From the NCBI GenBank assembly GCA_963783075.1, contig CAWAMF010000008.1, positions 72,543 to 136,542 on the forward strand: a stretch of 64,000 bases of DNA. The letters run 5' to 3'. The first letter of the stretch is position 1. Each line of letters starts with the position of its first letter. Shown in pieces: positions 44,802 through 62,647 of this stretch. The position numbers and the translations under genes were made by a program. This DNA comes from an uncultured Gammaproteobacteria bacterium (GTDB lineage Bacteria; Pseudomonadota; Gammaproteobacteria; Xanthomonadales; Rhodanobacteraceae). The notes beneath the pieces were generated by a model that did not search any database, was not told the DNA's origin, and saw only the letters and a program-made list of their open reading frames with translations.

Positions 44802-44846
44802 GGCGGTTTCTAAACTCAAGTGCATCACCTGAGCGAAGGAACCCCG

Positions 44847-45716
44847 ATGGGCCAGCACTACGACCAGCTGAGCGCCGAAGAGCGCGGCACGATCATGGCG
44901 ATGAAACTGGGTCACGCCAGTGGCCGGGCGATTGCGCGGACGCTGGGCCGTTCGCCCAGCACGATTGCCCGGGAACTGTGCCGCAACGGTTATCAACCAC
45001 CGCAGGCGTGCGGCCCGCTGGGCCGTCCACGGATTGCCGGTGGCTACGACGCCCGTCGCGCGGGTCAACGGGCGCGGCGCCTGCAGCGCAAGCGGCGGGT
45101 GACACGCAAGCTGCACCGCGAGGGCGGGCTATGGCGCGATGTGCACTCGCGCTTGCAGCTGCGCTGGGCCCCCGAGCAGATCGCCCGCACACTCAAGGAA
45201 CGTTATCCCGATCAGGCCGCTTGCCGCGTGTCGCACGAAACCATCTACACCGCGATCTACGCCATGCCCCGGGGCGAACTGCGGCGCAAAGTCATTGCGC
45301 TGTTGCGCCAGGCCCGCGGGGTTCGTCGGCGTACGCGGACCGGTCCGGAGACCCGCGGCAAGCTGCCGGACCTGCCGAGCATCCACCTTCGCCCGCCGGA
45401 GGCGAACGAACGCTTGCTGCCGGGCCACTGGGAAGGCGACTTAATCATGGGCGCCTACAACCGCTCGGCAGTGGGCACCCTGGTCTGCCGCTACAGCCTG
45501 TTCGTGATGCTGGTGAAGGTGGAGGACACCACCGCCCATGGGGTGCTGGAGGGTTACTGGCGCACCTTCACGCCGTTGCCGGAGGAGTTGCGTAAGACGC
45601 TGACCTACGATCAGGGCAAGGAAATGGCTTTGCACCGCAAGCTCAGCGAACTGACCGACTTGGCGATCTACTTTGCCGACCCGCACAGCCCGTGGCGCTG
45701 CATTGCTCTTCTGTAG
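44847..45716 (+). mobile_element. IS30 family transposase gene, 3'-truncated remnant
   Basis: It has the N-terminal HTH (LSAEERGTIMAMKLGHASGRAIARTLGRSPSTIAREL), the DDE region HWEGDLI ... LTYDQGKEM, and ends at ...YFADPHSPW. The expected continuation with the catalytic Glu is missing. The frame runs into a REP unit that supplies the TAG stop. Confidence 0.8.
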
Positions 45717-49483: not shown

Positions 49484-51391
49484 ATGGGTGCAGGGGCGAA
49501 CTCCCGAACGGTTCGGTGGTGGAGGCGCACGTCGCTGATGCAGCGGCTCGCGCTGGTTGCGCTCGTCCCTACGCTGGTGACGGCCGCGCTGCTGGTCACC
49601 ATGCTCACCCAGCACCAATTGGCCAGTCTACGCGGCATGGCGCAGAACACCGCCGATGCCATCGCCACGCAAGCGGCCTCGGTAACCGCCGCGCCGCTAC
49701 GTGACATGCAGCGCCGCGAACTGGTGCGCATTGCCGAATCGATCGGGGAGCTTCCCCACGTCGCACGCGTGCAGATTCGTGCCGCCGATGGCGAGATCCT
49801 GGCCGACGAACTGGGACGCAGCGGCGCCAACAACACCGACACGCTGACGGTGACGCGCGACGTGGTCGACAGCGATCAGGCGGGTCATCCCGTACTCGGC
49901 TCGGTGATGGTGGATGTCAGCCTCAGCGACGCCATTGCCGCCCAGCACGCCAGCCTGCAGCACGCACTAGCCGCCTTGTTGGTGAGCCTGCTAGTGGCCG
50001 CGGTGATCGGTTGGCAGGCTGCGCGCTGGATCAGCGCCCCGCTACGCCGCCTGGTTGCCGCCGTGCATCAGCTGGGCCGCGGCGATCGCCATGTCGAGGT
50101 GGAGGTTACCGACCAGAGCGAGATTGGCGAACTGCAACGTGGCTTCAACAGCGCGGCGCTGGCCCTTTTCGATGTACAGCGCAGCATGGAGAAGGAAATC
50201 GAGCACGCCACGGTGGAGCTGGCGCGCAAGAACGCGGCACTGGAAGCGGCCAGCGTTGCCAAGGCGCGCTTTCTCGCTGCGGCTTCGCACGACCTGCGCC
50301 AGCCGCTGTATGCACTGACCCTGTTCTCTTCGTCGCTGGCGGTGGACGAACGCGATCCGGTGCGACTCGATCGCATCGCGCATATCCAGGAATGCGTGGA
50401 AGCGCTCGATCACCTGTTCAGCGAACTGCTTGACCTGTCGCGCCTGGAGACTGGCGCCATGCAGATCGAGATCACCGAATTCCCGCTCGATCAGGTATTC
50501 GAGGAAGTCAGCCGCAACTTCCGCATGATTGCCGAACAACACGGGCTGCGCCTGATCATGCGCGCCACCAACCTGTGGGTACGCAGCGACCACACCATGC
50601 TCGCGCGCATTCTCAATAACCTCGTAAGCAACGCGCTGCGGTACACCAGCTCGGGTGGCGTGCTGGTGGTTGCCCGTCGCCGCAGCGACAACACCGTGCG
50701 CGTCGATGTATGGGACACCGGCAGCGGTATCGCTCCCGAACACCAGGCGCGCGTATTCGACGAGTTCTATCGGGTGGAATGTCATAACGGCAACGGCGAA
50801 CACGACACCGGTCCGCGCCGGGGCCTGGGCCTGGGCCTGGCAACCGTGCAACGCCTGGCCGAGCTGCTCGACACGCAGGTGCTGCTGCAATCCAGTCCCG
50901 GCCACGGCAGCGTGTTCAGTTTCCATCTGCCGGTGGTAGCTCCGCAGCAACTGTTCAACCCGGCAAGCGACGAGGCGCCGTTGGACGTGTCGGGCATGCG
51001 CGTGCTGGTGGTCGACGACGAGCCGGCGATACTCTCGGGTATCCGCTACCTGTTGCGCAGCTGGGGTTGCGAGGTCGCGGTGGCCGAGGATCGCACGCAG
51101 GCGCTGCAGGCTGCCGAGGAGTGGCCAATGCCCCCTGATATCGTCATCTCCGACCTCAGATTGCGCGATGGCGAAAGCGGCCTGGACGTGTTGGCTGCGC
51201 TGGACCAGCACTACCAGCGCGACGGCAATCCACCCTTCCCGCGCCTGCTCATCACGGGCGAAACGCGCAGCGACCGGCTTCGCGAAATCATGGCCGCCAA
51301 AATTCCGGTGCTGTACAAGCCGGTGTCGCCCGAGCAGCTGAAGGAAGCCATGATGGCGGCGTGGAACACCGCGCACGCAACCGTGGCCTGA
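49484..51391 (+). CDS. Hybrid sensor histidine kinase / response regulator
   Basis: Two TM helices flank a ~105-aa periplasmic loop. These are followed by a HAMP-like linker, the H-box FLAAASHDLRQPL, the ATPase motifs NLVSNALRYT, DTGSGI and GLGLGLA, and a C-terminal receiver (VLVVDDEP...ISDLRL...YKP). The start could be ATG 49538. Confidence 0.9.
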   Translation: MGAGANSRTVRWWRRTSLMQRLALVALVPTLVTAALLVTMLTQHQLASLRGMAQNTADAIATQAASVTAAPLRDMQRRELVRIAESIGELPHVARVQIRAADGEILADELGRSGANNTDTLTVTRDVVDSDQAGHPVLGSVMVDVSLSDAIAAQHASLQHALAALLVSLLVAAVIGWQAARWISAPLRRLVAAVHQLGRGDRHVEVEVTDQSEIGELQRGFNSAALALFDVQRSMEKEIEHATVELARKNAALEAASVAKARFLAAASHDLRQPLYALTLFSSSLAVDERDPVRLDRIAHIQECVEALDHLFSELLDLSRLETGAMQIEITEFPLDQVFEEVSRNFRMIAEQHGLRLIMRATNLWVRSDHTMLARILNNLVSNALRYTSSGGVLVVARRRSDNTVRVDVWDTGSGIAPEHQARVFDEFYRVECHNGNGEHDTGPRRGLGLGLATVQRLAELLDTQVLLQSSPGHGSVFSFHLPVVAPQQLFNPASDEAPLDVSGMRVLVVDDEPAILSGIRYLLRSWGCEVAVAEDRTQALQAAEEWPMPPDIVISDLRLRDGESGLDVLAALDQHYQRDGNPPFPRLLITGETRSDRLREIMAAKIPVLYKPVSPEQLKEAMMAAWNTAHATVA

Positions 51392-51397
51392 TCATGG

Positions 51398-53221
51398 TCA
51401 GGCCAGACGTCGTGCCAGCAGCCAATCCCCAGGCAGGAAGCGAACGAACAAGTCGTCGGCAAAATCGCCACCCGGCCTGCCGGCTTTTGCATCAGCGGTG
51501 AGGTAGAGGCCGCACCAGAGCAGCCGGCGTGCCACCACCGTTTCTCTCGCGAGCACATGATCGACAAACGTCTGCAAGCCACGCTGGAAGCTTGGCAGCG
51601 ACTGCACGAAGTCGAAGACCTCGCGTCGCCCCCGGGCATCGCGCTGTGCCGCAAGAACGGCCAATGCCGTCGTTTGCAAGCGCTCGATCAGGTCATTCAA
51701 ATGGACGTCCATACGTCCTTCGTCTTGCGTCGAAGCTGGCGTGCCGGGCGGGCGCACGCCAAGTGCCCGGTGCAGCACGGCCGATGGCAGTGTCGCCCGG
51801 AACGCGGCATACCCGGGCAGTGCGTCCAGCCCGGTCAGCACGATGTACAGCGGCAGTTGCAGCTGCATTTTGCTGGCGGCCTCGGCGGCCAGGTCACATA
51901 ACGTCGCCGCATATGTCGCAATGGTCGGTACCGGCTCCCACAGGCGCGTTGCCGCGGCGCAAAGCACGATGCCGTCGAGTGGCAGCTTGCGACGTTCCCG
52001 TGCCAGCAAGCCCAGCGCCTGTTCCCATGGCGCGTCATCGCCACGCGTGCCATCCGCGCCAGGCATAAGATGCGGCCCCGGCTCAATGGCGATCAACGAT
52101 CGAAAGACCCACCAGTGCCATGGCTTGGACAACTCTTCGCCGCTGAACTGGCGTGCATGCGGCGCGTGTGCCGCCGCGCGCAGCAGTCCGCGGACATTGG
52201 CCACGCTGTCGCCCATGAACAGCAACCAGGGATGCCGCGCCAGCCGTCGCCAGGTGCGACGCCGGCGAAACGGGTGAAGGATGGCGCCGCGCACGTGCCG
52301 CGCCGCCTCCATCAGGGCGGCCCACAGCTCGCCCACGCCATGGCCGGTCTCTGGATCGGTCGCCAGCCGGTGATGCGCACGCTTGAGCACGACTTCGTGC
52401 CAGACCATGGTCGCGCCCCAGCCAAGCGCTCCTGCGATAGCCATCGCCACGGCCGCTGCATACCAGGCCTGCGTCGACATCGCGCTGCTCAACGCGGGCG
52501 CGACAAACGCGAGCAGCACCAGCAACACCAGCGAACCCGCCACGAAGGGCGCAGGCCGGCCAGTCCATACCGCCTGCAAGGGATTCATCGGGAAGCCCGG
52601 CGCTCGATAAGGTTGGGTCGTAATCGCATCGCGCTGCAGGGACTGCAGAAGTGCCGGCGCATTCACACTGGGTGGACAGTGCAGGGCCTTGATCCGCCCC
52701 AGCTCGCCGTGGTCGCCCAACTCGTAGTAGTACTGCCCAACAAAGCCGAGCAGCAGCGCCATGCCGTAAACCTCGCGAACCTCCTCGGCATGGCCGCCCA
52801 GGCCGGCAAGGTGATCGAAGAATTCGCTGGCTGCGCCACCGGTGTGGAACAACGCCAGCTGCAGGGGCACCGCGTGATCCCACGCATCGTCGTGGCGCAC
52901 GACCATTTCGTCGAACCATGCCACCACCGCAAAGGCGGCCATCTCGACATCGGTCAGCGATTTCCCCTCGGCCAGCGCAAGCGTGCGCGCCTGCTCCAGT
53001 AGCGCCTGCATCCTGGCCTGCACCACGGCAACGCCATCAGACTCGACCTGCGCAGCCGCCTGTTCGTCGACAAGCAGTCCATACGAAAACAGGGGTGAAA
53101 AGCACTCCAGCAGCCGCATGGCGCCTAAGCCGGCCATGCGCGAGCGACCAGCGCCGCTTTGCCACATCGCGCTTGCTGGCTCGGGTAGTCGGTAATCTGC
53201 CGGTTCATCCACGCGTTCCAT
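51398..53221 (-). CDS. DotU(TssL)-like / IcmF(TssM) N-terminal-domain-like fusion membrane protein, nucleotide-binding motifs degenerate
   Basis: The ORF is 51398-53323, and the likely start is ATG 53221 (MERVDE...) or further downstream. The DotU-like block is AAFAVVAWFDEMVV...LALFHTGGAASEFFDHL...VYGMALLLGFVGQYYY. Two TM helices follow. The IcmF-N-like blocks are HPWLLFMGDSVANVRG, WHWWVFRSLIAIEPG, LPLDGIVLCAAATRL and LPLYIVLTGLDALPGYAAF. Confidence 0.7.
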   Translation of the reverse strand: MERVDEPADYRLPEPASAMWQSGAGRSRMAGLGAMRLLECFSPLFSYGLLVDEQAAAQVESDGVAVVQARMQALLEQARTLALAEGKSLTDVEMAAFAVVAWFDEMVVRHDDAWDHAVPLQLALFHTGGAASEFFDHLAGLGGHAEEVREVYGMALLLGFVGQYYYELGDHGELGRIKALHCPPSVNAPALLQSLQRDAITTQPYRAPGFPMNPLQAVWTGRPAPFVAGSLVLLVLLAFVAPALSSAMSTQAWYAAAVAMAIAGALGWGATMVWHEVVLKRAHHRLATDPETGHGVGELWAALMEAARHVRGAILHPFRRRRTWRRLARHPWLLFMGDSVANVRGLLRAAAHAPHARQFSGEELSKPWHWWVFRSLIAIEPGPHLMPGADGTRGDDAPWEQALGLLARERRKLPLDGIVLCAAATRLWEPVPTIATYAATLCDLAAEAASKMQLQLPLYIVLTGLDALPGYAAFRATLPSAVLHRALGVRPPGTPASTQDEGRMDVHLNDLIERLQTTALAVLAAQRDARGRREVFDFVQSLPSFQRGLQTFVDHVLARETVVARRLLWCGLYLTADAKAGRPGGDFADDLFVRFLPGDWLLARRLA

Positions 53222-53443
53222 CCATGCGCTGGCAACGCCACCGCCACGCTTCAAGCACGGTACGCATGAGCGATCCCCCATCGCAGAGCTTCGATTGTCC
53301 GGACCGCTTCCATGAGCAGCCATATCACCTTGTGACTAGACCATTCGTGGGCGCCGCACGGTTGCTGTACGAGCGGGCTGGGGCTATGTTGCGCAAGCGG
53401 GTGTGCGGCGATGGGAGCGCAGCATGACGCCATGGGGAATGAC

Positions 53444-54121
53444 ATGCGCATACTGATCGCGGACGACCACCGACTGATCGTCGAAGGGGTCAAGCTCAAG
53501 CTGGGCGAGCTGGGACCAAACACCGAATTTGTCATCGCCATGGACATGGCCGAGTTGCGCGAGGCCCTCCACGCACCGGAGGCGTCTTCGTTGTCGCTGG
53601 CCATGATCGACCTGGCGATGCCGGGCGTGCGGGGCAGCGAGCACCTCGCCGAAGTGGTCGAACGATTGCCTGATGTACCGGTCATCGTGCTGTCCGGGTC
53701 GGAAGATCCGAGCCTGATGAAAAGCCTGCTTGCGATGGGCGTGCAAGGTTTTATCCCGAAAGCCTATTCGCCTGATGTGATGCTGTCGGCAGTACGGCTG
53801 GTGCTCTCCGGTGGCGTCTACGTGCCTCCGCTATTGCTGCAGGAACGCATCGACGGTGCCGTGCCTCTGCCGGCGGCCGCCGCGGCAGCGGCCCCCCCGT
53901 CGCCCGACTCGCTCGAGGAACGCCTGCGCAAGCTACTCACCGAGCGCCAGATCGACGTACTGCGCCTGCTTTCGCAGGGCAAGCCCAACAAGCTGATTGC
54001 GCGTGACCTGGGCATCAGCGAGGGCACGGTGAAAATCCATCTGGCAGCCATCTTCCGTGCACTCAATGTACGTAATCGCGTTGAGGCGGTGGTGGCATCG
54101 CGGCGTATCAGCGGCATCTAA
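53444..54121 (+). CDS. NarL/FixJ (LuxR-type) response regulator
   Basis: The preferred start is ATG 53444 (MRILIADDH...). The receiver residues are DD, the MIDLAMPG phospho-acceptor, VLSG and FIPK. The C-terminal LuxR HTH is LTERQIDVLRLLSQGKPNKLIARDLGISEGTVKIHL. Confidence 0.9.
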   Translation: MRILIADDHRLIVEGVKLKLGELGPNTEFVIAMDMAELREALHAPEASSLSLAMIDLAMPGVRGSEHLAEVVERLPDVPVIVLSGSEDPSLMKSLLAMGVQGFIPKAYSPDVMLSAVRLVLSGGVYVPPLLLQERIDGAVPLPAAAAAAAPPSPDSLEERLRKLLTERQIDVLRLLSQGKPNKLIARDLGISEGTVKIHLAAIFRALNVRNRVEAVVASRRISGI

Positions 54122-54260
54122 GGCCCGCTGGGCATGTTTGTGCACCCCGGCTGTTTCACCTGACGCTAACGGTAGCCGCGTATCCTCGCCCACAAGACCG
54201 CACGCACGGCCCCACCGTTTTCGGCTGGGAGTATCCGGCGGCCCGGGGGGAGACATCACG

Positions 54261-55313
54261 TTGCCAAGGACATGGAGCCCAAGCCGTTGGCCCTGGCCGG
54301 TCAGGTCGGTATCGGTCTGGCTGCTTTGCGCCTGCCTGGTCGCCTCGGCTCCAACCGTCGCGGCCCCCGCGCCTGAAGGCGGCACGCATATTCGCGCGCT
54401 GACCTTCGGCATCCTGCCGATAGGCGGCCCGTCCGAATCGCTCGAAGCCTGGCGCCCCATGCTCGACGATCTCAGCCGCGTCCTGCACCTGCCCGTTCAC
54501 AGCCTTTCGGTGAGTACCTATGAAGGGCTTGGCCAGGCCATGGCTGAGGAGCGCGTCGATTTTGCGTTCGTGTCCGGGCGCCTGGCGCTCGACGCGGTGA
54601 CCCACGATCACATGCAGGTGATTGCCCAGCTGGCTCGCAGCAATGGCTCGCGTGGCTATTACTCGGTACTGCTGGTGGCGAAGGACTCGCCCCTGCGCAG
54701 CATCGACGATCTGTTCCGCCAGCCTGGCCGGCTCCGCTATGCGCGGGGCGAAGTGCTATCGGTGTCGGGTTACCTGGTGCCGGAAACGCAACTGTTCGCC
54801 AATCGGCGGCTCGATTCGGACACCTTCTTTACCAGCGTGAGCGTGGACAACCATCAGAACAACGCGTTGGCGGTGGCCAATAACGAGGTTGACGTAGCCA
54901 CCAACAACACGGCCGACCTGGAGCGTTTCTCCAAGCGCTTTCCCGATCAGTACGCAAAGCTGCGCGTACTATGGACGTCCAGCCTGATTCCCCACGCGGT
55001 CATCGTCATTCGCTCGGACCTGCCGGCGGATCTGCGCCAGCGGGTGACGGCCGCACTCACTACCTACGCCAAGGGTAAAAACGCCACGGCGGAGCTGGCC
55101 AAGCTGCAGCAGATCCACGACATCAGCGGCTTCACGCCCGCCGGCAATGAAACGCTGGTGCCATTTGCCGACATCGAATTCAACCTGGAACGGCGTCGCG
55201 CCTACAGCGCACAGTGGGTGAGCGATGCGGCCATGCAAGCGCGACTGCACAAGATCGACGCGGAACACGAGGCGCTGGTGAGGCGCCTGATGGCACCTCC
55301 CAGCCGGCCCTGA
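54261..55313 (+). CDS. Periplasmic substrate-binding protein, PhnD/phosphonate-binding-like family
   Basis: There is no in-frame ATG before the signal peptide, so I propose TTG 54261 with GGGGGAG upstream, giving (M)PRTWSPSRWPWPVRSVSVWLLCACLVASAPTVAA. The body ...LTFGILPIGG...STYEGLGQAMAEERVDFAFVSG...YYSVLLVAKDSPLRSIDDL...VSGYLVP... is PhnD-like. Confidence 0.7.
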   Translation: MPRTWSPSRWPWPVRSVSVWLLCACLVASAPTVAAPAPEGGTHIRALTFGILPIGGPSESLEAWRPMLDDLSRVLHLPVHSLSVSTYEGLGQAMAEERVDFAFVSGRLALDAVTHDHMQVIAQLARSNGSRGYYSVLLVAKDSPLRSIDDLFRQPGRLRYARGEVLSVSGYLVPETQLFANRRLDSDTFFTSVSVDNHQNNALAVANNEVDVATNNTADLERFSKRFPDQYAKLRVLWTSSLIPHAVIVIRSDLPADLRQRVTAALTTYAKGKNATAELAKLQQIHDISGFTPAGNETLVPFADIEFNLERRRAYSAQWVSDAAMQARLHKIDAEHEALVRRLMAPPSRP

Positions 55314-56211: not shown

Positions 56212-57648
56212 ATGGAGTCGCGCGCCCACCTGCTCCCTCGCCTGTTCATCGACGTCGTGCTGCCAGGCACGATCGCCGCGCTGGCGCTCGTGCTGGCGCT
56301 ATGCGTCCAGCAGGTGCACAACCTGGGCGAGCGTGCCGATGCGGCCATCGCCCTGCGCACCGAACGCATTACTCACCAACTATCCAATGATGCGGGCGCC
56401 TCGCCGCAGAATGCACTCGATCGCGTCCTGCGCGACGGGCAGGCCGACCAATTGCTTCGCGTCGAACTGCACCGACTCGATGGCGGCGTCTGGAGCAGCG
56501 GCACGGCACCTGCCCAAGGTAGCGCCACCTACCGCAGTGAACTGGATCGGCGCGGCGATACCTCGTCCTGGTTGAGCCTGCAGTTCGATACCAGCCCCCT
56601 TCGCCGCGCGCAGGGCATGGTGTGGCTGCTGGGCAGCCTCTGTGCAGCAGGCATCATCGTGCTCGCATGGTTGGCCCGGGTCACCCTACGCCATCGTGTG
56701 CTCGAGCCGCTGTCGCATCTTCAGGCCTCGCTGCAGGAGCTGACCCAGGGCCGTCACCCGGGCACGGACATCACACCGGCCAGCGCGGAGTTCAGCGATA
56801 TCGGGCAAACCGTGCAGCAGTTGTTCGACACCGAGGAGGAGCAGCGGCGGGACTGGAGCGCCATGCAGCGCGACAATGCCGTCGAAGCACTCGATCGCCT
56901 GCGCCAGAGCCAGGCGGCCACGCGCAGCAAGTCGCAATTCATTGCGCTGGTCAGCCACCATTTCCGTCAGCCTCTGCAGGCGCTCGAGCTGTTCGCGGGA
57001 GGCTTCGATGCCCACGCCAACGACGAGCAACAAGCGCTGTTTCGCCAGGTGCGCGCCAGCATCACCTCGATGACGCGGCTGCTCGATGCGCTGCTGGAAA
57101 TCTCACGACTCGATGCCGGCGTCATCGCCGTCAAACCGGTAGGCTTCACGGCAGCCGAATTGTTTATGCGCGACCGCACCTCGCTCAATCACGAGGCCGC
57201 GCAACAGCATGTCGCGCTCGTGTGGCGCGGCAGCCACCATCAGCTGCACGGTGATGCGGACGTTGCCGCCAATCTGCTCTATCAGTTGGCCAGCAACGCC
57301 ATCATCAATGCGCCACAGGGTCGGGTGCTGATTGCGGCCCGTCGCCGGGGCCAGGCGATCCGCATCGAAGTGCGCGACAACGGGCCAGGCATCGCCGTCA
57401 TTCACCAGCAGCGAATTTTCGAAGAGTTCGTGCAGCTGCAGGGCGGCGAAAGCGAGCGCCGTAACGGCTACGGTCTTGGGCTGGCCATTGCCGAGCGGCT
57501 GGCGCAGTTGCTCGGCACGCGTATCGGCCTGCGTTCGGAACCAGGTCGCGGCAGCACCTTCTGGTTCGACCTGCCGCGCATGCCGGTGATGGAGATTCAT
57601 TCCAACCCCCGCAGCCGGCCTTCGGCCGCTTGGCGTCAGGCAAGCTGA
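56212..57648 (+). CDS. Sensor histidine kinase
   Basis: Two TM helices flank a ~115-aa periplasmic loop. The H-box is FIALVSHHFRQPLQAL, and the ATPase motifs are LASNAIINA, DNGPGI and GYGLGLAIA. There is no receiver domain. Confidence 0.9.
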   Translation: MESRAHLLPRLFIDVVLPGTIAALALVLALCVQQVHNLGERADAAIALRTERITHQLSNDAGASPQNALDRVLRDGQADQLLRVELHRLDGGVWSSGTAPAQGSATYRSELDRRGDTSSWLSLQFDTSPLRRAQGMVWLLGSLCAAGIIVLAWLARVTLRHRVLEPLSHLQASLQELTQGRHPGTDITPASAEFSDIGQTVQQLFDTEEEQRRDWSAMQRDNAVEALDRLRQSQAATRSKSQFIALVSHHFRQPLQALELFAGGFDAHANDEQQALFRQVRASITSMTRLLDALLEISRLDAGVIAVKPVGFTAAELFMRDRTSLNHEAAQQHVALVWRGSHHQLHGDADVAANLLYQLASNAIINAPQGRVLIAARRRGQAIRIEVRDNGPGIAVIHQQRIFEEFVQLQGGESERRNGYGLGLAIAERLAQLLGTRIGLRSEPGRGSTFWFDLPRMPVMEIHSNPRSRPSAAWRQAS

Positions 57649-58067: not shown

Positions 58068-58812
58068 TCAAAGGCAAGCCCGTAATTTTATGGGCTTGGC
58101 GCTCATGGCACAAGCGAAAGCGTTCAGATATAGCGGGTCGGGTCTGGGCAAACCGGCCGCCAGGAAGCCCTGCAAGCGCAGGCGGCAGGCGTCACAATGG
58201 CCGCAGGCACGGCCTTGCGCGTCGGCTTGGTAGCAGCTGACGGTTTCGGAGAAGTCGACGCCCAGGCGGCATCCTTCGCGCGCGATATCCGCCTTGCTCA
58301 TGCGCATCAGAGGCGCATGAATGCGGATGCCCGCCCCTTCCACGCCCGCCTTGGTCGCCACATTGGCAAGCTGCTGGAAGGCCTCGATGAAGGCCGGACG
58401 GCAGTCCGGATAGCCGGAATAATCCACGGCGTTCACGCCGCACCAGATGTCGGTGGAACCGAGCACTTCGGCCCAGCCCAGTGCAATGGACAACATGATG
58501 GTGTTGCGCGCCGGCACGTAGGTCACCGGGATGCCCTTGCCCGTCATCCTGATCGAGCGGCACATCGATATCGGCCGTCAGCGCCGAGCCACCGATGGTG
58601 CGCAGATCCACCTGCACCGTCTTGTGCTCGACGGCGCCGAGCGTGCGCGAAACACGCTCGGACGCTTCCAGCTCGGCGCTATGGCGCTGCCCGTAGGCCA
58701 CGCTCAGCGCGTGTACCTGGTAACCCTGTTCGCGGGCAATGGCGATGGTGACGGCCGAATCCATGCCGCCGGAGACAAGCACGACGGCCTTGCGGGGCGA
58801 TGATTGAGACAT
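58068..58812 (-). pseudogene. queC: 7-cyano-7-deazaguanine synthase QueC, one +1 frameshift near 58540-58560
   Basis: The N-terminal frame from ATG 58812 is MSQSSPRKAVVLVSGGMDS (PP-loop)...TADIDVP. The C-terminal frame is [17 protein letters not shown]...[10 protein letters not shown] (Zn cluster). The length is 3n+1. The likely extra base is a G/C in gacgggcaag. Confidence 0.85.
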
Positions 58813-58916
58813 GGGATACATCCACTCCAGGTTCAGGCCGGTGATCCGGCCGAAAAGCGCCAACGGCAACACAGGCCGACGCGCGGGAAACAATTGTCCG
58901 GGTTTTGCCCGCGCAG

Positions 58917-58979
58917 CTCGCGCACAAGGTGCGCCCCTGCAGGGCATGGCAATGTGTAGGAGCGCATCCTGTGCGCGAT
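58917..58979. repeat. REP family A units, divergent arrangement
   Basis: ctcgcgcacaaggtgcgcccctgca (58917-58941) and tgtaggagcgcatcctgtgcgcgat (58955-58979) lie between queE and queC. Confidence 0.6.
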
Positions 58980-58989
58980 CCAACCCGCC

Positions 58990-59684
58990 TCAGTGCCCCG
59001 CCGCGTCGTTCCACAGCAGCTTGTGCAACTGCAACTGAAAGCGCACGTCGAGCTTGTCCTCGATGATCCACTCCGCCAGCTCACGCGGCTCGATCGCACC
59101 GTGCACGGGCGAGAACAACACCATGCAGCGTTCGCCGATGCGATGTTCGGCCACCACCGCACGCGCCCATTCGTAGTCCGCGCGGCTGGCGATGACGACC
59201 TTCACCTGGTCGTGCGGCAGCAGGTGTTCCAGGTTCGACCACAGGTTTCGCTTGCTCTCGCCGGAATCGGGCGCCTTGAGGTCCATCACCTTGCGCACGC
59301 GCGGGTCGACCACGCGACACGTCGAGCGCACCGGAGGTTTCCAGCGACACCTCATGCCCGGCATCACACAAGCGCTTGAGCAGGATCAGGCAGCGCTTTT
59401 GCGCCAACGGCTCGCCGCCCGTCACGCAGACATGCTTGGCGCCATGCGAGGCCACCTCGGCCACGATGTCGTCCATGGCGCGCCAATCGCCGCCATAGAA
59501 GGAATATTCGGTATCGCACCACACGCAACGCAGCGGGCATCCAGTCAGCCGGACGAATACGGTACGCCAGCCGATCGGCATCGGCCTCGCCCTGGATCGA
59601 ATGGAATATCTCGGTAATGCGCAAGCGTTCGGTCGCGACTGGCGCAGACGTGGTGGGCGCCACGCTCGGGTTACTACCGCTCAC
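58990..59684 (-). pseudogene. queE: 7-carboxy-7-deazaguanine synthase QueE (radical SAM), two +1 frameshifts near 59578 and 59310
   Basis: Three consecutive frames carry RLRITEIFHSIQGEA | GWRTVFVRLTGCPLRCVWCDTEYS...GHEVSLETSGALDVS | VDPRVRKVMDLKAPDSGES...FQLQLHKLLW. The length is 3n+2. The apparent start is GTG 59684. Confidence 0.85.
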
Positions 59685-59694
59685 AACAACTACC

Positions 59695-60565
59695 TCAGTT
59701 GGCCGTCTGCAGCTGCAGGCGACGCAAACGCTCCTGGGCCAGGCTGGCGGCCTTGGAACCCGGGTACTTGGTGGATACCGCTTTCAACGTCGCCTTGCCG
59801 GCATCGACCTGCTTGAGCTCGATCTGGCTGTAACCCGCCTTGAGCATGGCATCGGGTGCCTTCTCGCTCTGCGGGAACTGGCTGAGCAGCGTCTGGAAGG
59901 CCTCCAGCGCCACCGGGTAGTTCATGGTCGCGTAGTACGACTCACCCAGCCAGTAATAGGCGTTGGGCAACAGCGGGCTATCGGGATACTGCTGGATGAA
60001 AGCACGGAAACCGCGCGATGCCTGCGCATAGTCACCGCCGCGCAACGACTTGAAGGCCTCGTCGTAAGCGGCCTGCGCGGTGGCGGCGTTGGCCGGGGCT
60101 GCGCCCTTGGCCGCCGCAGCCCCTGCGGCTGTCTTGGCGCCCTTGCCCGCATCCACGGCCGGCGCCGGTGCTGCGCTGGCGGCCGGTGGGGGATTGGTGG
60201 TGTTGGCCGCATTACCGGCGCGCCTGCCGCTGCACCGGCACCGCCTTCGAGGCGGCCCAGGCGCGAATCGAGATCCACGTACTGCGCCTTGTTCTTGTCG
60301 TTCGCTTCCTGCAGCTGGTGCTGGAGTTCTTCGATCTGGCCCTGCATCTGCTGAAGCTGGGACTGCAGCGCCTGCACCTGGTTGACCAGGGTCGTGCCGC
60401 CTTGGTTCTGTGTTTTGCGCCTGCTGCTCGAGCCGCGTGACGCGGTCGGCCAGGCTCAACCGGGAATCCTGCGCGAATGCCGGGACAGCCAAAAAGCATG
60501 GCGGACGCAAATGCGCCCGCCATGCCCATCCTGGCTGTGAAGCTGTTAGCCAGTTGCTTCTTCAT
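59695..60565 (-). pseudogene. cpoB: Cell division coordinator CpoB (YbgF), three frameshifts
   Basis: The pieces are a signal peptide frame (MKKQLANSFTARMGMAGAFASAML), a coiled-coil in two frames (AVPAFAQDSRLSLADRVTRLEQQAQ | TTLVNQVQALQSQLQQMQGQIEELQHQLQEANDKNKAQYVDLDSRLGRLEGG), then an Ala/Pro linker and the TPR C-terminus (YDEAFKSLRGGDYAQA...YWLGESYY...). The shifts are near 60491-60495 (A5 run), 60405-60417 and 60222-60235. Confidence 0.8.
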
Positions 60566-61071
60566 TACTTCGCCGTGTAGACGATCTCGACGCGACGGTT
60601 CTTGCTCCAGCAGTCTTCGTTGTGCTCACGGCACACCGGCTTTTCCTTGCCGTACGAGATCACGTTGATCTGGCTGGCCGAGCCGCCGTTCGACTGCAGG
60701 GCGCTGGACACGGCATTGCCACGACGCTCACCCAGGCCGAGGTTGTACTCGCGCGTGCCGCGCTCGTCGGTGTTGCCTTCCAGGCGGATCTGCGCCATCG
60801 GGCGATCCTGCAGGTACTTGGCGTGGCACGCCATGATCTGCTGGAACTCAGGCTTGATCTCGTCCTTGTCGAAATCGAAGTACACGACGCGCTGACGCAG
60901 GCAGGCATCGGTATCGAGATCGGCCGGGGTGTACTTGTGCTCGGTCTGAACCGGGGCGGTCATCGGAGCCTGCTCCGGAGCCGGCTGCGGCTTGACTTCC
61001 TGCTTCTTCGAGCATGCGGCCGCGCCAACGCAGAGCAGGGCGACCAGAGCGACGCGAACGGTCTTATTCAT
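60565..61071 (-). CDS. pal: Peptidoglycan-associated lipoprotein Pal
   Basis: The preferred start is ATG 61071. The lipobox is LLCVGAAAC. The OmpA-like domain is VYFDFDKDEIKPEF...LEGNTDERGTREYNLGLGERRGNAV...NRRVEIVY. Confidence 0.9.
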   Translation of the reverse strand: MNKTVRVALVALLCVGAAACSKKQEVKPQPAPEQAPMTAPVQTEHKYTPADLDTDACLRQRVVYFDFDKDEIKPEFQQIMACHAKYLQDRPMAQIRLEGNTDERGTREYNLGLGERRGNAVSSALQSNGGSASQINVISYGKEKPVCREHNEDCWSKNRRVEIVYTAK

Positions 61072-61320
61072 GGTGGACGTTCCTTCAAACGGGTTTGAGT
61101 TCCGACAGTCAGTAATGATTGCGGTTTCGGGACAGTGATCGCCGGTGAACCGGCTGTTATTTTGACATTTTGCTGCCGGCAGTGCGCTGTCTCGCAACCG
61201 CCTGACCTATCGTCCGCGACTGATTGCCGCAGGCGACAAGCTGTTTGATCCGGAGTGTCGTTTAAGGCTTCACGTCCGGATCACATGGCCGCGACGCTTG
61301 CACGTCACGACATGAACTGG

Positions 61321-62647
61321 TCAACGCTGCCGATAGGGACCCCATGCCGGTTCGCGGACGTCGCCGTCAGCAAGCACGAGTCGCTGCCTGACCAGACCAT
61401 CGGCGGACACGGCGTACAAGACACCGCGGCTTCCTTCGGAGGCGGCATACAACAGCATGCTGGCGTTGGGCGCGAAACTTGGAGTTTCATCGATCGGACC
61501 CGGCGAGATGAAGCGCACCTGCCCACCCAGACTGCGATCCATAATGGCAATACGATACACGTTCCCGTTGCCCTGCACCATCGCGATCTGCTTGCCGTCG
61601 TAGCTGATCGAAGCGTTAGCGTTGAACTGACCCTGGAAGGTGATGCGATCGGCTCCGCCACCGCCTGCCGGCATCTGGTAGAGCTGCGGACGGCCGGAGC
61701 GGTCGGACGGTGAAGATGATGCTCTGACCATCGGGCGTCCAACGCGGCTCGGTGTCGATCGCCAGGTTGTTGGTCAGGCGGGTCTCCGAGCGCGAGCCCA
61801 GATCCATGACGTAGATCTCCGGGTTGCCCTGATAGGACAAGGCCAGTGCCAGCTTGGAGCCATCCGGCGACCAGTTCGGCGCACCGTTGATACCCTTCGC
61901 ACGGGCAGAGACCAGCTGGCGCGAGCCCGTGGTGATGTCCTGCACATAGATGGCCGAGTTACCGCTTTCAAACGATACGTAGGCGATCTTGCGGCCATCC
62001 GGCGACCATGCCGGCGACAACAGCGACTCGCGCGAGCGGGCCACCACCTGCGGGTTGTAGCCGTCCGAATCGGCCACGATCAACGAGTAGGTGGTGTTGT
62101 TACCCAGGCCTACTGCTGTGATGTAGGCGATGCGGGTCCAGAACGCGCCTCGCACGCCGGTGACCTTCTCGTAGATGGCGTCGGCGATCTGGTGAGCCAC
62201 GCCGCGCAGGTCGCCGGCGGGCGCGGTGAACGCCTGGGCCAGCAGGCTCTGCTGCTTGTTGACGTCCCACAGTTCGAATTCGACACGCAGCATGCCGCCA
62301 CCGGCGTCACTGATGCGACCCACGGTGATGTAGTCCTGCTTGAGCAGGCGCCAGGTGGCGAAATTGATGTCCGAGCCCTTGGATGGGGTCTCGACAATTT
62401 CGCTCTTGGCCAGCGAGCGGAACTTGCCGCTGCGGTTGAAATCGTTGCGAATGACGTCGGCCACATCGGTGGGCAGCGGCGCCCCACCGGCCTGGGCAAA
62501 CGGCACCACAGCGATTGGAGTGGCCGTTTTCAGGCCACCGACAATGTCGACGTTAAGCGACTGGGCTGCGGCCGGGCCCGCGATCAACGCGGCCACGACG
62601 AGCAGGACGAGGGCGAGGCTTGTGCTCAATTTGCGCATGGGCTTCAT
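61321..62647 (-). pseudogene. tolB: Tol-Pal system beta-propeller protein TolB, one +1 frameshift near 61708
   Basis: The N-terminal frame (MKPMRKLSTSLALVLLVVA...WSPDGSKLALALSYQGNPEIYVMDL...[11 protein letters not shown]) continues in another frame ([17 protein letters not shown]...AWGPY). The length to GTG 62650 is 3n+1. The ATG at 62647 overlaps the tolA stop. Confidence 0.9.

What the first reader, a model, noticed from the sequence alone, without database searches (positions are those of the whole stretch)
51398..53221. Orphan TssL(DotU)-TssM(IcmF N-domain) fusion protein with dead nucleotide-binding motifs and no type VI secretion genes nearby
One ~607-aa polypeptide combines three parts. 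(i) A DotU-like cytoplasmic domain: AAFAVVAWFDEMVV ... LALFHTGGAASEFFDHL ... VREVYGMALLLGFVGQYYY follows the remembered DotU pattern YALCA.LDE.V ... FH.E..GG..FF..L ... E.Y..CL.LGF.G.Y. (ii) Two TM helices. (iii) A region colinear with the cytoplasmic NTPase domain of IcmF/TssM. In that region HPWLLFMGDSVANVRG replaces the PWYL..G..GSGKT Walker A, and WHWWVFRSLIAIEPG replaces WWF..AVLIDTAG. LPLDGIVLCAAATRL and LPLYIVLTGLDALPGYAAF match the downstream conserved blocks. The protein ends before the third TM and the periplasmic domain of TssM. The 64 kb window contains no TssB/C, Hcp, VgrG, baseplate, ClpV or TssJ gene. A membrane-complex module that looks exapted and catalytically degenerate, sitting among signalling genes, is not a described system as far as I know.
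Basis: partly seen in the sequence, partly recalled or inferred. Interest (0 to 1): 0.75.

Follow-up and report, generated by a model that had tools for sequence, protein, structure and literature searches.

The report
Kept relic of a lost T6SS
This gene is the only structural piece left of a type VI secretion gene cluster: the cytoplasmic parts of two of its membrane proteins, fused into one protein that evolution has kept, together with the cluster's own signalling genes, in bacteria that no longer have that machine.

Summary
Window 51398-53119 (-) encodes one protein made of a TssL/DotU cytoplasmic domain, a TM hairpin and the TssM/IcmF cytoplasmic domain. It ends just before TM3, and the 64 kb hold no other T6SS gene.

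The context explains it. In related Rhodanobacter, Dyella, Thermomonas, Luteimonas and Pigmentiphaga genomes, a complete T6SS cluster lies between the same LuxR-type regulator (often with the PhnD-like binding protein) and the same convergent hybrid kinase. In the window everything is gone except tssL codons ~1-182, joined in frame to tssM codons 1-~391.

All 26 Dyella-type copies are intact, with dN/dS about 0.17. Dyella jiangningensis carries one and is reported to have no T6SS. Fusions with other junctions, and an unfused truncated pair in Rhodanobacter terrae, indicate repeated origins.

The "dead" P-loop is not a result of exaptation: every full-length TssM of this cluster type examined lacks Walker A and B.

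The origin as a retained relic is well supported. The function is only inferred. My best guess is a membrane-anchored cytoplasmic adaptor of the co-retained two-component system. I class it as a new variant of a known kind, of moderate to high interest.

The parts
51398..53119 (-). Coding sequence of the TssL-TssM' fusion (573 aa from the conserved Met of MRLLECF; the open frame runs up to 53323)
   Evidence: Searches identify the ORF and its domains. One search shows the conserved start. One search shows 26 intact Dyella-type copies of 570-583 aa, and one search gives dN/dS of about 0.17.
52589..53116 (-). TssL/DotU cytoplasmic domain (aligns to TssL aa 3-~182 of a related T6SS cluster, 50-57% identity); TssL's own TM helix and periplasmic DUF4384 domain are deleted
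   Evidence: Searches give the alignments. One search gives the hit to 3u66 and 6y4r, and the TM-score of 0.77 to 6y4r.
52400..52549 (-). TM1-TM2 hairpin inherited from TssM (PFVAGSLVLLVLLAFVAPALS / AWYAAAVAMAIAGALGWGATMVW). The former TssM start codon is Met at 52586-52588
   Evidence: One search aligns MNPLQAVWTGRP with TssM MSLTQKTWFRP. One search shows model helices 206-226 and 232-270.
51401..52399 (-). TssM cytoplasmic domain (IcmF-related_N, G-protein-like alpha/beta fold), ending just before TM3
   Evidence: Searches give the family hits. One search aligns it to TssM 1-391 at 36% identity. Searches give the model and fold matches.
52181..52231 (-). Position of Walker A, here PWLLFMGDSVANVRGLL (no GK[ST])
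   Evidence: One search shows the same degenerate motif in all T6SS-borne TssM of this cluster type.
52076..52120 (-). Position of Walker B, here WHWWVFRSLIAIEPG (no DTAG)
53317..53367 (-). Conserved non-coding element (..GCAAC..N..GAAnGGnCTAGnC....GTGATATGGC). In T6SS-bearing Rhodanobacteraceae it precedes the traB-tssK-tssL-tssM operon. It is probably the retained operon control region
   Evidence: Searches show the conservation. One search finds no canonical sigma-70 match.
53382..53392 (-). Second conserved intergenic motif, GCAACATAGCC (its reverse complement holds a TATGTT -10-like hexamer facing the regulator gene)
53411..54121 (+). LuxR/NarL-type response regulator, divergent from the fusion; ortholog of the regulator inside the T6SS clusters (72% identity)
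54057..55313 (+). PhnD-like periplasmic binding protein (true start probably near 54285); ortholog of the one in the T6SS clusters (62%)
49484..51391 (+). Hybrid histidine kinase (TM-HAMP-HisKA-HATPase-REC) with a NahK/ErcS-like core; convergent, and its stop lies 6 nt from the fusion's stop. It is the ortholog of the kinase that closes the T6SS clusters
56212..57648 (+). Second histidine kinase (HisKA-HATPase, NahK/ErcS-like core), conserved next to the module in all reduced loci

Best explanation
What is shown. The gene is a relic of a type VI secretion cluster that once lay between the LuxR-type regulator with its binding protein and the convergent hybrid kinase. Deletions removed traB and tssK, the TM and periplasmic part of tssL, the 3' two thirds of tssM, tssA-B-C-hcp-tssE, and (across the regulator) mltA-tssF-tssG. 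What remains is an in-frame fusion of the TssL cytoplasmic domain, the TssM TM1-TM2 hairpin and the TssM cytoplasmic domain. All globular parts face the cytoplasm. The fusion is kept by purifying selection across the genus Dyella and does not depend on having a T6SS. Its missing P-loop is inherited.

What is inferred. The fusion still sits behind the old operon control region next to the regulator. It most likely acts as a membrane-anchored cytoplasmic adaptor, or co-regulator, of the co-retained phosphorelay (binding protein, hybrid kinase, second kinase and LuxR regulator). This would reuse the protein-protein contacts that TssL and TssM cytoplasmic domains make in the T6SS membrane complex.
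For: Origin:
- Complete clusters with the order TssG-TssF-MltA | (binding protein) regulator | TraB-TssK-TssL-TssM-TssA-TssB-TssC-Hcp-TssE | hybrid kinase occur in about 45 loci.
- The window hits only the regulator (72%), the binding protein (62%), TssL 3-185 and TssM 1-391.
- Rhodanobacter terrae has an unfused truncated TssL' and TssM' in the same frame.

Selection:
- All 26 Dyella-type copies are intact.
- dN/dS has a median of 0.167, and is similar in both halves (DotU 0.166, IcmF_N 0.186), against 0.07-0.18 for neighbouring genes.
- Two reduced Rhodanobacter lineages that share a deletion junction still show 0.22-0.27.

Independence from a T6SS:
- D. jiangningensis is listed as having no T6SS and carries the fusion (L018).

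Repeated origin:
- Junctions differ between lineages: L~182::M1 in Dyella, L195::M48 in P0055, a further deletion in P0056, and a Variovorax-like lineage in P0209.

Link to signalling:
- The four cluster genes kept are the fusion plus the regulator, binding protein and hybrid kinase, in every reduced locus.
- The upstream element is conserved.
- Distances of the fusion co-vary with those of the kinases and the binding protein after correcting for GlnRS and VTT (partial r 0.66-0.80; this is weak evidence).
- Elsewhere an IcmF_N domain is fused to a nucleotide cyclase, next to a DotU-DUF4384 protein and a Crp-type regulator.
Against: - There is no direct evidence of any contact between the fusion and the kinases or the regulator.
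- The co-retention could equally mean that the fusion is a regulated target rather than a signalling partner.
- The fusion evolves two to several times faster than its neighbours (window versus L090: dN 0.060 against 0.002-0.013). The Dyella stem branch is long in the TssL and TssM trees. This fits relaxed constraint as well as a new function.
- No histidine or aspartate suited to phosphotransfer is invariant.
- The inter-domain arrangement in the model is uncertain (pTM 0.49).
- The absence of a T6SS in D. jiangningensis rests on one published table, and the window's own genome beyond these 64 kb is unknown.
- The mirror-tree correlations are inflated by shared phylogeny.
Confidence: 0.45

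Rival explanations
1. The fusion is a regulated output, not a signalling partner. The two-component system survived because it controls other genes. The fusion is kept as one of its targets, with a new membrane-associated job unrelated to signal transfer, such as an envelope or stress role.
For: The fusion lies directly behind the conserved control element that precedes the T6SS structural operon in relatives. It is under purifying selection. It evolves faster than the signalling genes, as expected if it is not locked into their complex.
Against: This does not explain why precisely the two mutually interacting cytoplasmic domains are kept together and repeatedly fused. Nor does it explain why the same four genes are co-retained in every reduced locus.
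Confidence: 0.25
2. It acts in trans on another T6SS. In genomes with a second T6SS (group 3 in D. japonica), the fusion would bind baseplate or membrane-complex parts as a modulator or decoy.
For: By general knowledge of T6SS, TssL and TssM cytoplasmic domains bind TssK, TssE and TssG. D. japonica A8 has a group 3 T6SS and an orphan VgrG about 11 genes from the fusion. RHS genes lie near the module in L090. In Variovorax a regulator-TssL-truncated TssM trio lies next to sheath and tube genes of another subtype.
Against: D. jiangningensis keeps the fusion and is reported to have no T6SS. T6SS subtypes are usually orthogonal. The window has no T6SS gene.
Confidence: 0.12
3. It is a slowly decaying pseudogene that merely looks intact, because stop codons are rare in GC-rich DNA.
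For: Its evolution was strongly accelerated relative to T6SS-borne orthologs: TssM part 35-42% identity against 78-86%, while the regulator is equally similar in both groups. Long spurious ORFs are common in this window. Several nearby genes carry frameshifts.
Against: dN/dS is 0.1-0.2 in close pairs, in both halves of the protein. No frameshift or stop is seen in 26 lineages that differ by up to 47% in protein sequence. There are 85 invariant columns. All independent junctions are in frame.
Confidence: 0.05
4. It is a relocated structural tssL/tssM gene serving a T6SS cluster elsewhere that lacks them.
For: None beyond the domain content.
Against: It lacks TM3 and the whole periplasmic channel-forming part of TssM, and it lacks TssL's TM and periplasmic domain. 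It scores 103 bits against the TssM cut-off of 388. The D. japonica T6SS is described as very similar to the complete X. citri system.
Confidence: 0.02

Closest known systems
TssL (DotU) and TssM (IcmF), inner-membrane core of the type VI secretion membrane complex
   Same: The N-domain has the TssL cytoplasmic fold (3u66, 6y4r). The C-part is colinear with TssM TM1-TM2 plus its cytoplasmic NTPase-like domain. It descends directly from the tssL-tssM pair of a T6SS cluster still present in sister species.
   Different: It is one polypeptide. It has no TssL TM or periplasmic DUF4384 domain, and no TssM TM3 or periplasmic domain, so it cannot build a channel or touch TssJ or the outer membrane. 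No sheath, tube or baseplate genes accompany it, and it is kept in a species reported to lack a T6SS.
TssM proteins without a functional Walker A
   Same: It lacks GK[ST] and DTAG. By my own recollection of the literature, the Walker A motif is required for Hcp secretion in Agrobacterium but is dispensable in Edwardsiella EvpO.
   Different: Here the loss is a fixed trait of a whole T6SS cluster type, in complete clusters of Rhodanobacter, Thermomonas, Luteimonas, Lysobacter and Pigmentiphaga and in the truncated TssM of Variovorax. It predates the fusion.
Full-length TssL::TssM fusions (for example P0303, 1288 aa)
   Same: A DotU domain joined to the N-terminus of TssM. This shows the junction is topologically sound.
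   Different: P0303 keeps the long C-terminal part of TssM. The window protein stops before TM3.
DotU-DUF4384 protein plus Guanylate_cyc-IcmF_N protein plus Crp-type regulator (locus L093)
   Same: A TssL-like and TssM-N-like pair occurs outside any sheath or tube context and is wired to signalling parts.
   Different: These are separate proteins. The output is a nucleotide cyclase and a cNMP-binding regulator, not a two-component system, and the TssL-like partner keeps its periplasmic domain.
Post-translational T6SS control through TssL (PpkA/PppA/Fha/TagF)
   Same: By general knowledge, the cytoplasmic face of TssL and TssM is a known docking site for signalling proteins.
   Different: No Fha, PpkA, PppA or TagF gene was seen in the window's main ORFs or in the called genes and mapped genes of the related clusters examined. 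These clusters carry a LuxR regulator and a hybrid kinase instead.

Membership tests
TssL / DotU (PF09850, TIGR03349) | Cytoplasmic DotU fold | tested here: met
   Pfam gives E=9e-19, 68 bits against a cut-off of 27. The family profile hits 3u66 at E=7e-11. Foldseek gives TM-score 0.77 to 6y4r. TIGR03349 gives 55.7 bits, below its cut-off of 89.95.
TssL / DotU (PF09850, TIGR03349) | Own C-terminal TM anchor, often followed by a periplasmic domain (here DUF4384 in the parent type) | tested here: not met
   The alignment to parent TssL stops at about aa 182, just before its TM. The next residue aligns to TssM Met1. There is no DUF4384 hit.
TssM / IcmF (TIGR03348) | TM1-TM2 hairpin plus cytoplasmic IcmF_N domain | tested here: met
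   PF14331 gives E=6.5e-32. The protein is colinear with TssM 1-391.
TssM / IcmF (TIGR03348) | TM3 and the large periplasmic domain that forms the channel with TssJ; full-length model score | tested here: not met
   The protein ends before TM3. It scores 103 bits against a cut-off of 388, covering only model positions 30-375 of 1168.
TssM / IcmF (TIGR03348) | Walker A/B NTP-binding motifs | tested here: not met
   The motifs are GDSVANVRG and AIEPG. They are also absent in all full-length TssM of the parent cluster type, so this does not discriminate here.
Functional T6SS locus | Co-located core genes (tssA-C, E-G, K, hcp, vgrG, clpV) | tested here: not met
   tblastn and Pfam scans of the window's main ORFs find none. 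vgrG, clpV and tssJ were checked by Pfam only.
Functional T6SS locus | A T6SS elsewhere in the same genome | not testable with these tools
   Only 64 kb of the genome is available. In the literature, D. jiangningensis has none and D. japonica has one group 3 system.
Accessory protein of a two-component system | Physical or genetic interaction with the kinase or regulator | not testable with these tools
   Only conserved co-retention and neighbourhood and weak rate covariation are available.

The most novel reading that the evidence does not exclude
The TssL-cytoplasmic and TssM-cytoplasmic pair is itself a signal-transducing module. In this T6SS type it would couple the membrane complex to the cluster's hybrid kinase and LuxR regulator. 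After the secretion machine was lost, the pair was kept, and repeatedly fused, as an indispensable co-sensor or scaffold of that phosphorelay. The same pair has been wired to other outputs elsewhere, such as a nucleotide cyclase with a Crp-type regulator. That would make it a previously unrecognised class of bacterial signalling adaptor derived from a secretion system.
Probability: 0.25. Interest if true: 0.8.

Novelty: new variant of a known kind. Interest (0 to 1): 0.6.

Why it matters
Losses of secretion systems are common, but relics that stay under selection are rarely documented with their intermediate stages. This case has four things together:
- the ancestral cluster, still present in sister species;
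- an unfused truncated stage;
- at least three independently fused end products;
- clear purifying selection.

It therefore gives a clean natural experiment on which parts of the T6SS membrane complex have a use beyond secretion. It points to a link, not seen so far in the papers I searched, between TssL/TssM cytoplasmic domains and a cluster-encoded two-component system. It also shows that a whole T6SS cluster type works with a TssM that has no P-loop. For annotation, it warns that hits to 'IcmF/TssM N-terminal domain' or 'DotU family' in Dyella do not indicate a T6SS.

Tried and rejected
- A plasmid tblastn found only ordinary TssL or TssM hits.
- One look-up of D. japonica A8 protein P0044 found no contig.
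- A TssC homolog search, meant to reveal other T6SS in Dyella genomes, listed only the closest 120 sheath proteins and none from Dyella. It did tie the cluster type to the Lysobacter gummosus cluster that Bayer-Santos et al. describe as divergent and as carrying a LuxR homolog. The question was answered from that paper's supplementary table instead.
- Literature searches for TssL/TssM remnants or DotU-IcmF fusions found nothing relevant.
- The sigma-70 scan found no canonical promoter upstream, so the conserved element is left unassigned.
- I looked for an invariant His or Asp that could serve in phosphotransfer and found none.
- A shared single 3' deletion for all reduced lineages could not be settled. 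R. terrae and P0055 share an identical junction, but the Dyella type ends about 10 codons earlier.
- Mirror-tree covariation is reported but not relied on.
- I did not use the metagenome scan, the third homolog search or the second structure job.
Full report
**1. The observation**

The open frame at 51398-53323 (-) has a maximum of 641 aa. It carries a DotU domain (PF09850, E=9e-19) and an IcmF-related N-terminal domain (PF14331, E=6.5e-32). The TssM equivalog model TIGR03348 matches only its positions 30-375 of 1168, at 103 bits against a cut-off of 388.

A profile of 24 family members hits the solved TssL cytoplasmic domains 3u66 (E=7e-11) and 6y4r (3e-10). An AlphaFold2 model built on 66 sequences (pLDDT 73, pTM 0.49) has an N-domain that superposes on TssL 6y4r (TM-score 0.77). 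Its alpha/beta C-domain weakly resembles G-protein folds such as G-alpha, FeoB and Arf.

The window holds no other T6SS gene. tblastn with 15 proteins of a related cluster hits only the regulator, the binding protein, TssL 3-185 and TssM 1-391. Pfam scans of the main window ORFs (chosen by third-position GC content) give housekeeping functions: a MacB-type ABC system, riboflavin genes, SHMT, NrdR, MprF, OPT, Def, CstA, GlnRS and the Tol-Pal genes.

**2. Where the gene comes from**

The protein has about 57 full-length relatives, nearly all from Dyella (Rhodanobacteraceae), at 53-89% identity, plus three at 36-42%. The next-best hits are 448-aa TssL proteins with DotU and DUF4384 domains from Dyella and Rhodanobacter.

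The context of one of these (L005) settles the origin. A complete T6SS cluster lies there in this order: TssG-TssF-MltA | PhnD-like binding protein, LuxR regulator | TraB/GumN-TssK-TssL-TssM-TssA-TssB-TssC-Hcp-Hcp-TssE | convergent hybrid kinase.

A scan of one genome per species, mapped with tblastn, shows the same architecture in about 45 loci. These come from Rhodanobacter, three Dyella species (tabacisoli, silvatica, S184), Thermomonas, Luteimonas, Lysobacter, Stenotrophomonas nitritireducens, Pseudoxanthomonas, Pigmentiphaga, Corticibacter and Hydrocarboniphaga. The regulator and the hybrid kinase, with the binding protein in many of these loci, are therefore built-in parts of this cluster type.

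In the window, in 22 Dyella species or MAGs (L010-L031) and in further metagenomic loci, the same frame contains only the fusion. The order is: second kinase ... binding protein - regulator <-> fusion -> <- hybrid kinase - VTT - deaminase - GlnRS.

**3. Anatomy of the fusion**

Residues 70-245 (641-aa numbering) align to TssL 3-~182 at 50% identity, ending just before TssL's TM helix. Residue 246, a Met, aligns to Met1 of TssM. Residues 246-637 align to TssM 1-391 at 36% identity.

So TssL's TM and its periplasmic DUF4384 domain were deleted in frame. Both TM helices are TssM's TM1-TM2 hairpin, and the protein stops where TM3 would begin. Every globular part is cytoplasmic. The stop codon lies 6 nt from the stop of the convergent kinase.

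The conserved start across the family is the Met of MRLLECF at 53119, not 53221 or 53323.

**4. The 'dead' P-loop is inherited**

Every full-length TssM examined in complete clusters of this type, and the truncated Variovorax TssM, has PW[ML]LF.GD..A.V.GLL in place of Walker A. They have WWFFKS.IAIE in place of the Walker B/DTAG block. The fusion has the same motifs. This trait predates the fusion and says nothing about exaptation.

**5. The gene is functional**

All 26 Dyella-type copies are uninterrupted ORFs of 570-583 aa. Nei-Gojobori dN/dS for 70 pairs with dS below 1 has a median of 0.167. By region it is 0.166 for DotU, 0.236 for the hairpin and 0.186 for IcmF_N. Neighbours give 0.07 (hybrid kinase), 0.11 (regulator), 0.09 (binding protein), 0.13 (second kinase), 0.10 (GlnRS) and 0.18 (VTT).

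The fusion nevertheless evolves faster than its neighbours. For window versus L090 its dN is 0.060, against 0.002-0.013 for the neighbours.

Relative to T6SS-borne orthologs it has diverged far more than the regulator has. The TssL part is 50-57% identical and the TssM part 35-42% identical to the L005 proteins. T6SS-bearing Dyella and Rhodanobacter show 85-91% and 78-86%. The regulator is about 70-75% identical in both groups. In NJ trees the Dyella fusions sit on a long stem for TssL and TssM but not for the regulator. This indicates a burst of change after the machine was lost, followed by steady constraint.

**6. Intermediates and repeated origin**

- Rhodanobacter terrae (L042) has the reduced frame with two separate genes: a TssL' (cytoplasmic domain, TM and a 20-aa stub) and a TssM' ending ...GRAGATSP*.
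- The metagenomic fusion P0055 (L001/L002) ends with the same ...GATSP* junction. It joins TssL ~195 to TssM ~48, loses the hairpin, and still has a TssK C-terminal remnant upstream. It is 88% and 79% identical to T6SS-borne TssL and TssM, and groups with T6SS-bearing Rhodanobacter sp. OK091.
- P0056 and P0057 carry further in-frame deletions.
- P0209 (L092), whose DotU part is closest to Variovorax TssL (59%), is another fusion, lying between a LuxR regulator and tssJ/tssA.

Neither the Dyella junction nor the P0055 junction can be derived from the other by further deletion. There are therefore at least three fusion events.

R. terrae and P0055, whose divergence is entirely after the loss, still show dN/dS of 0.27 and 0.22. 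T6SS-borne genes show 0.04-0.11 and 0.06-0.23.

All truncations end within about 20 residues after FLP.D..LA, the boundary before TM3. This is also true in Variovorax, where a separate 372-aa TssM' follows a full TssL.

**7. Independence from a T6SS**

Bayer-Santos et al. 2019 (PMC6653060, supplementary Table S1) list Dyella jiangningensis as having no T6SS. They list D. japonica A8 as having one group 3 system at HY57_13760, far from the fusion HY57_07160. D. jiangningensis SBZ 3-12 carries an intact fusion (L018). The fusion cannot replace a structural TssM in any case.

**8. Regulation and function (inference)**

A conserved non-coding element of about 50 bp (..GCAAC..GAAnGGCCTAGGC....GTGATATGGC) precedes traB-tssK-tssL-tssM in T6SS-bearing Rhodanobacteraceae. 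It is retained upstream of the fusion in most Dyella copies examined, including the window (53317-53367). A second motif, GCAACATAGCC, faces the regulator gene. Neither is a canonical sigma-70 promoter. The fusion thus probably still answers to the neighbouring regulator.

Both kinases have NahK/ErcS-like cores and the regulator is ErdR/NarL-like, all below equivalog cut-offs. Pairwise distances of the fusion co-vary with those of the two kinases and the binding protein after removing the GlnRS and VTT signal (partial r 0.66-0.80). Shared phylogeny inflates such values, so I give this little weight.

In an unrelated locus, an IcmF_N domain is fused to a nucleotide cyclase. It lies beside a DotU-DUF4384 protein and a Crp-type regulator, with no sheath or tube genes in 17 kb. 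This shows the pair can be wired to signalling.

On this basis I favour a membrane-anchored cytoplasmic adaptor of the retained phosphorelay (about 0.45 for the whole statement; the origin part alone about 0.9). The main rival is that the fusion is simply a regulated target with another job. Action in trans on another T6SS, pseudogene status and a structural role are progressively less likely.

**9. Novelty**

Databases name the family by its domains. I found no paper on it or on T6SS relics of this kind. It is a new variant of a known kind: a TssL-TssM derivative that has left the secretion machine.

**10. Caveats**

- The functional model is untested.
- Absence of a T6SS in the window's own genome cannot be checked.
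- The trees are simple NJ trees.
- dS is partly saturated for distant pairs.
- The window has several frameshifted housekeeping genes at 58-62.6 kb, which hints at local sequence errors. The fusion's colinearity with 25 other Dyella-type copies rules out an artefact there.

Noticed in passing
window 58140-62560: tolB, ybgF, queE (three frames) and queC are each split by frameshifts relative to orthologs in L007. The kinases, regulator, fusion and GlnRS are intact. This is either local indel errors in the assembly or real pseudogenes; the latter is unlikely for tolB.
   Followed up: partly
window 44820-45716: An IS30-like transposase (HTH_38 plus rve; the rve score is just under the cut-off) lies between the DUF2127 gene and GlnRS. 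Close relatives L090 and L091 have no gene there.
   Followed up: no
L076-L089 (Variovorax), e.g. L082 9066-16824: A conserved trio is present: LuxR regulator, full TssL (DotU plus DUF4384) and a TssM of only about 372 aa, ending at the same FLPADQPL boundary. It is followed by TssA-TssB-TssC-Hcp of a different subtype (46-50% identity), or by binding-protein and hybrid-kinase genes. A truncated TssM thus also occurs beside sheath genes.
   Followed up: partly
L093 6618-10326: A DotU-DUF4384 protein, a Guanylate_cyc-IcmF_N protein (P0274; P0293 is similar) and a cNMP-binding Crp-type regulator lie in a row. OmpA, AAA, Sel1-DUF4384 and TPR-CHAT genes are around them, and there are no sheath or tube genes in 17 kb. 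This looks like a separate exaptation of the TssL/TssM pair.
   Followed up: partly
P0303 (1288 aa; no locus fetched): A DotU domain is fused to a full-length TssM. Fusions of TssL to the TssM N-terminus therefore also exist with the long C-terminal part of TssM kept.
   Followed up: no
L092 4476-8801 (GCA_004173945.1): A third fusion lineage (P0209, 616 aa) lies between a divergent LuxR regulator and tssJ/tssA. Its DotU part is 59% identical to Variovorax TssL, while its IcmF_N part is only about 28% identical to any TssM compared.
   Followed up: partly
L090 1-5093; D. japonica A8 HY57_07215 (literature): RHS/YD-repeat genes and an integrase lie just beyond the second kinase in the closest relative's locus. 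In D. japonica A8 an orphan VgrG is listed about 11 genes from the fusion. These may be leftover effector islands of the lost system.
   Followed up: no
L005 and about 45 related loci: This T6SS cluster type carries TraB/GumN and MltA genes and a TssL with a periplasmic DUF4384 domain. It has a built-in LuxR regulator and hybrid kinase, and its TssM lacks Walker A and B throughout. Its sheath protein is closest to that of the Lysobacter gummosus cluster, which Bayer-Santos et al. describe as divergent.
   Followed up: partly
L001 4469-4738: A 102-aa ORF matching the last 90 residues of TssK (61%) survives upstream of the P0055 fusion. It marks a recent deletion.
   Followed up: no
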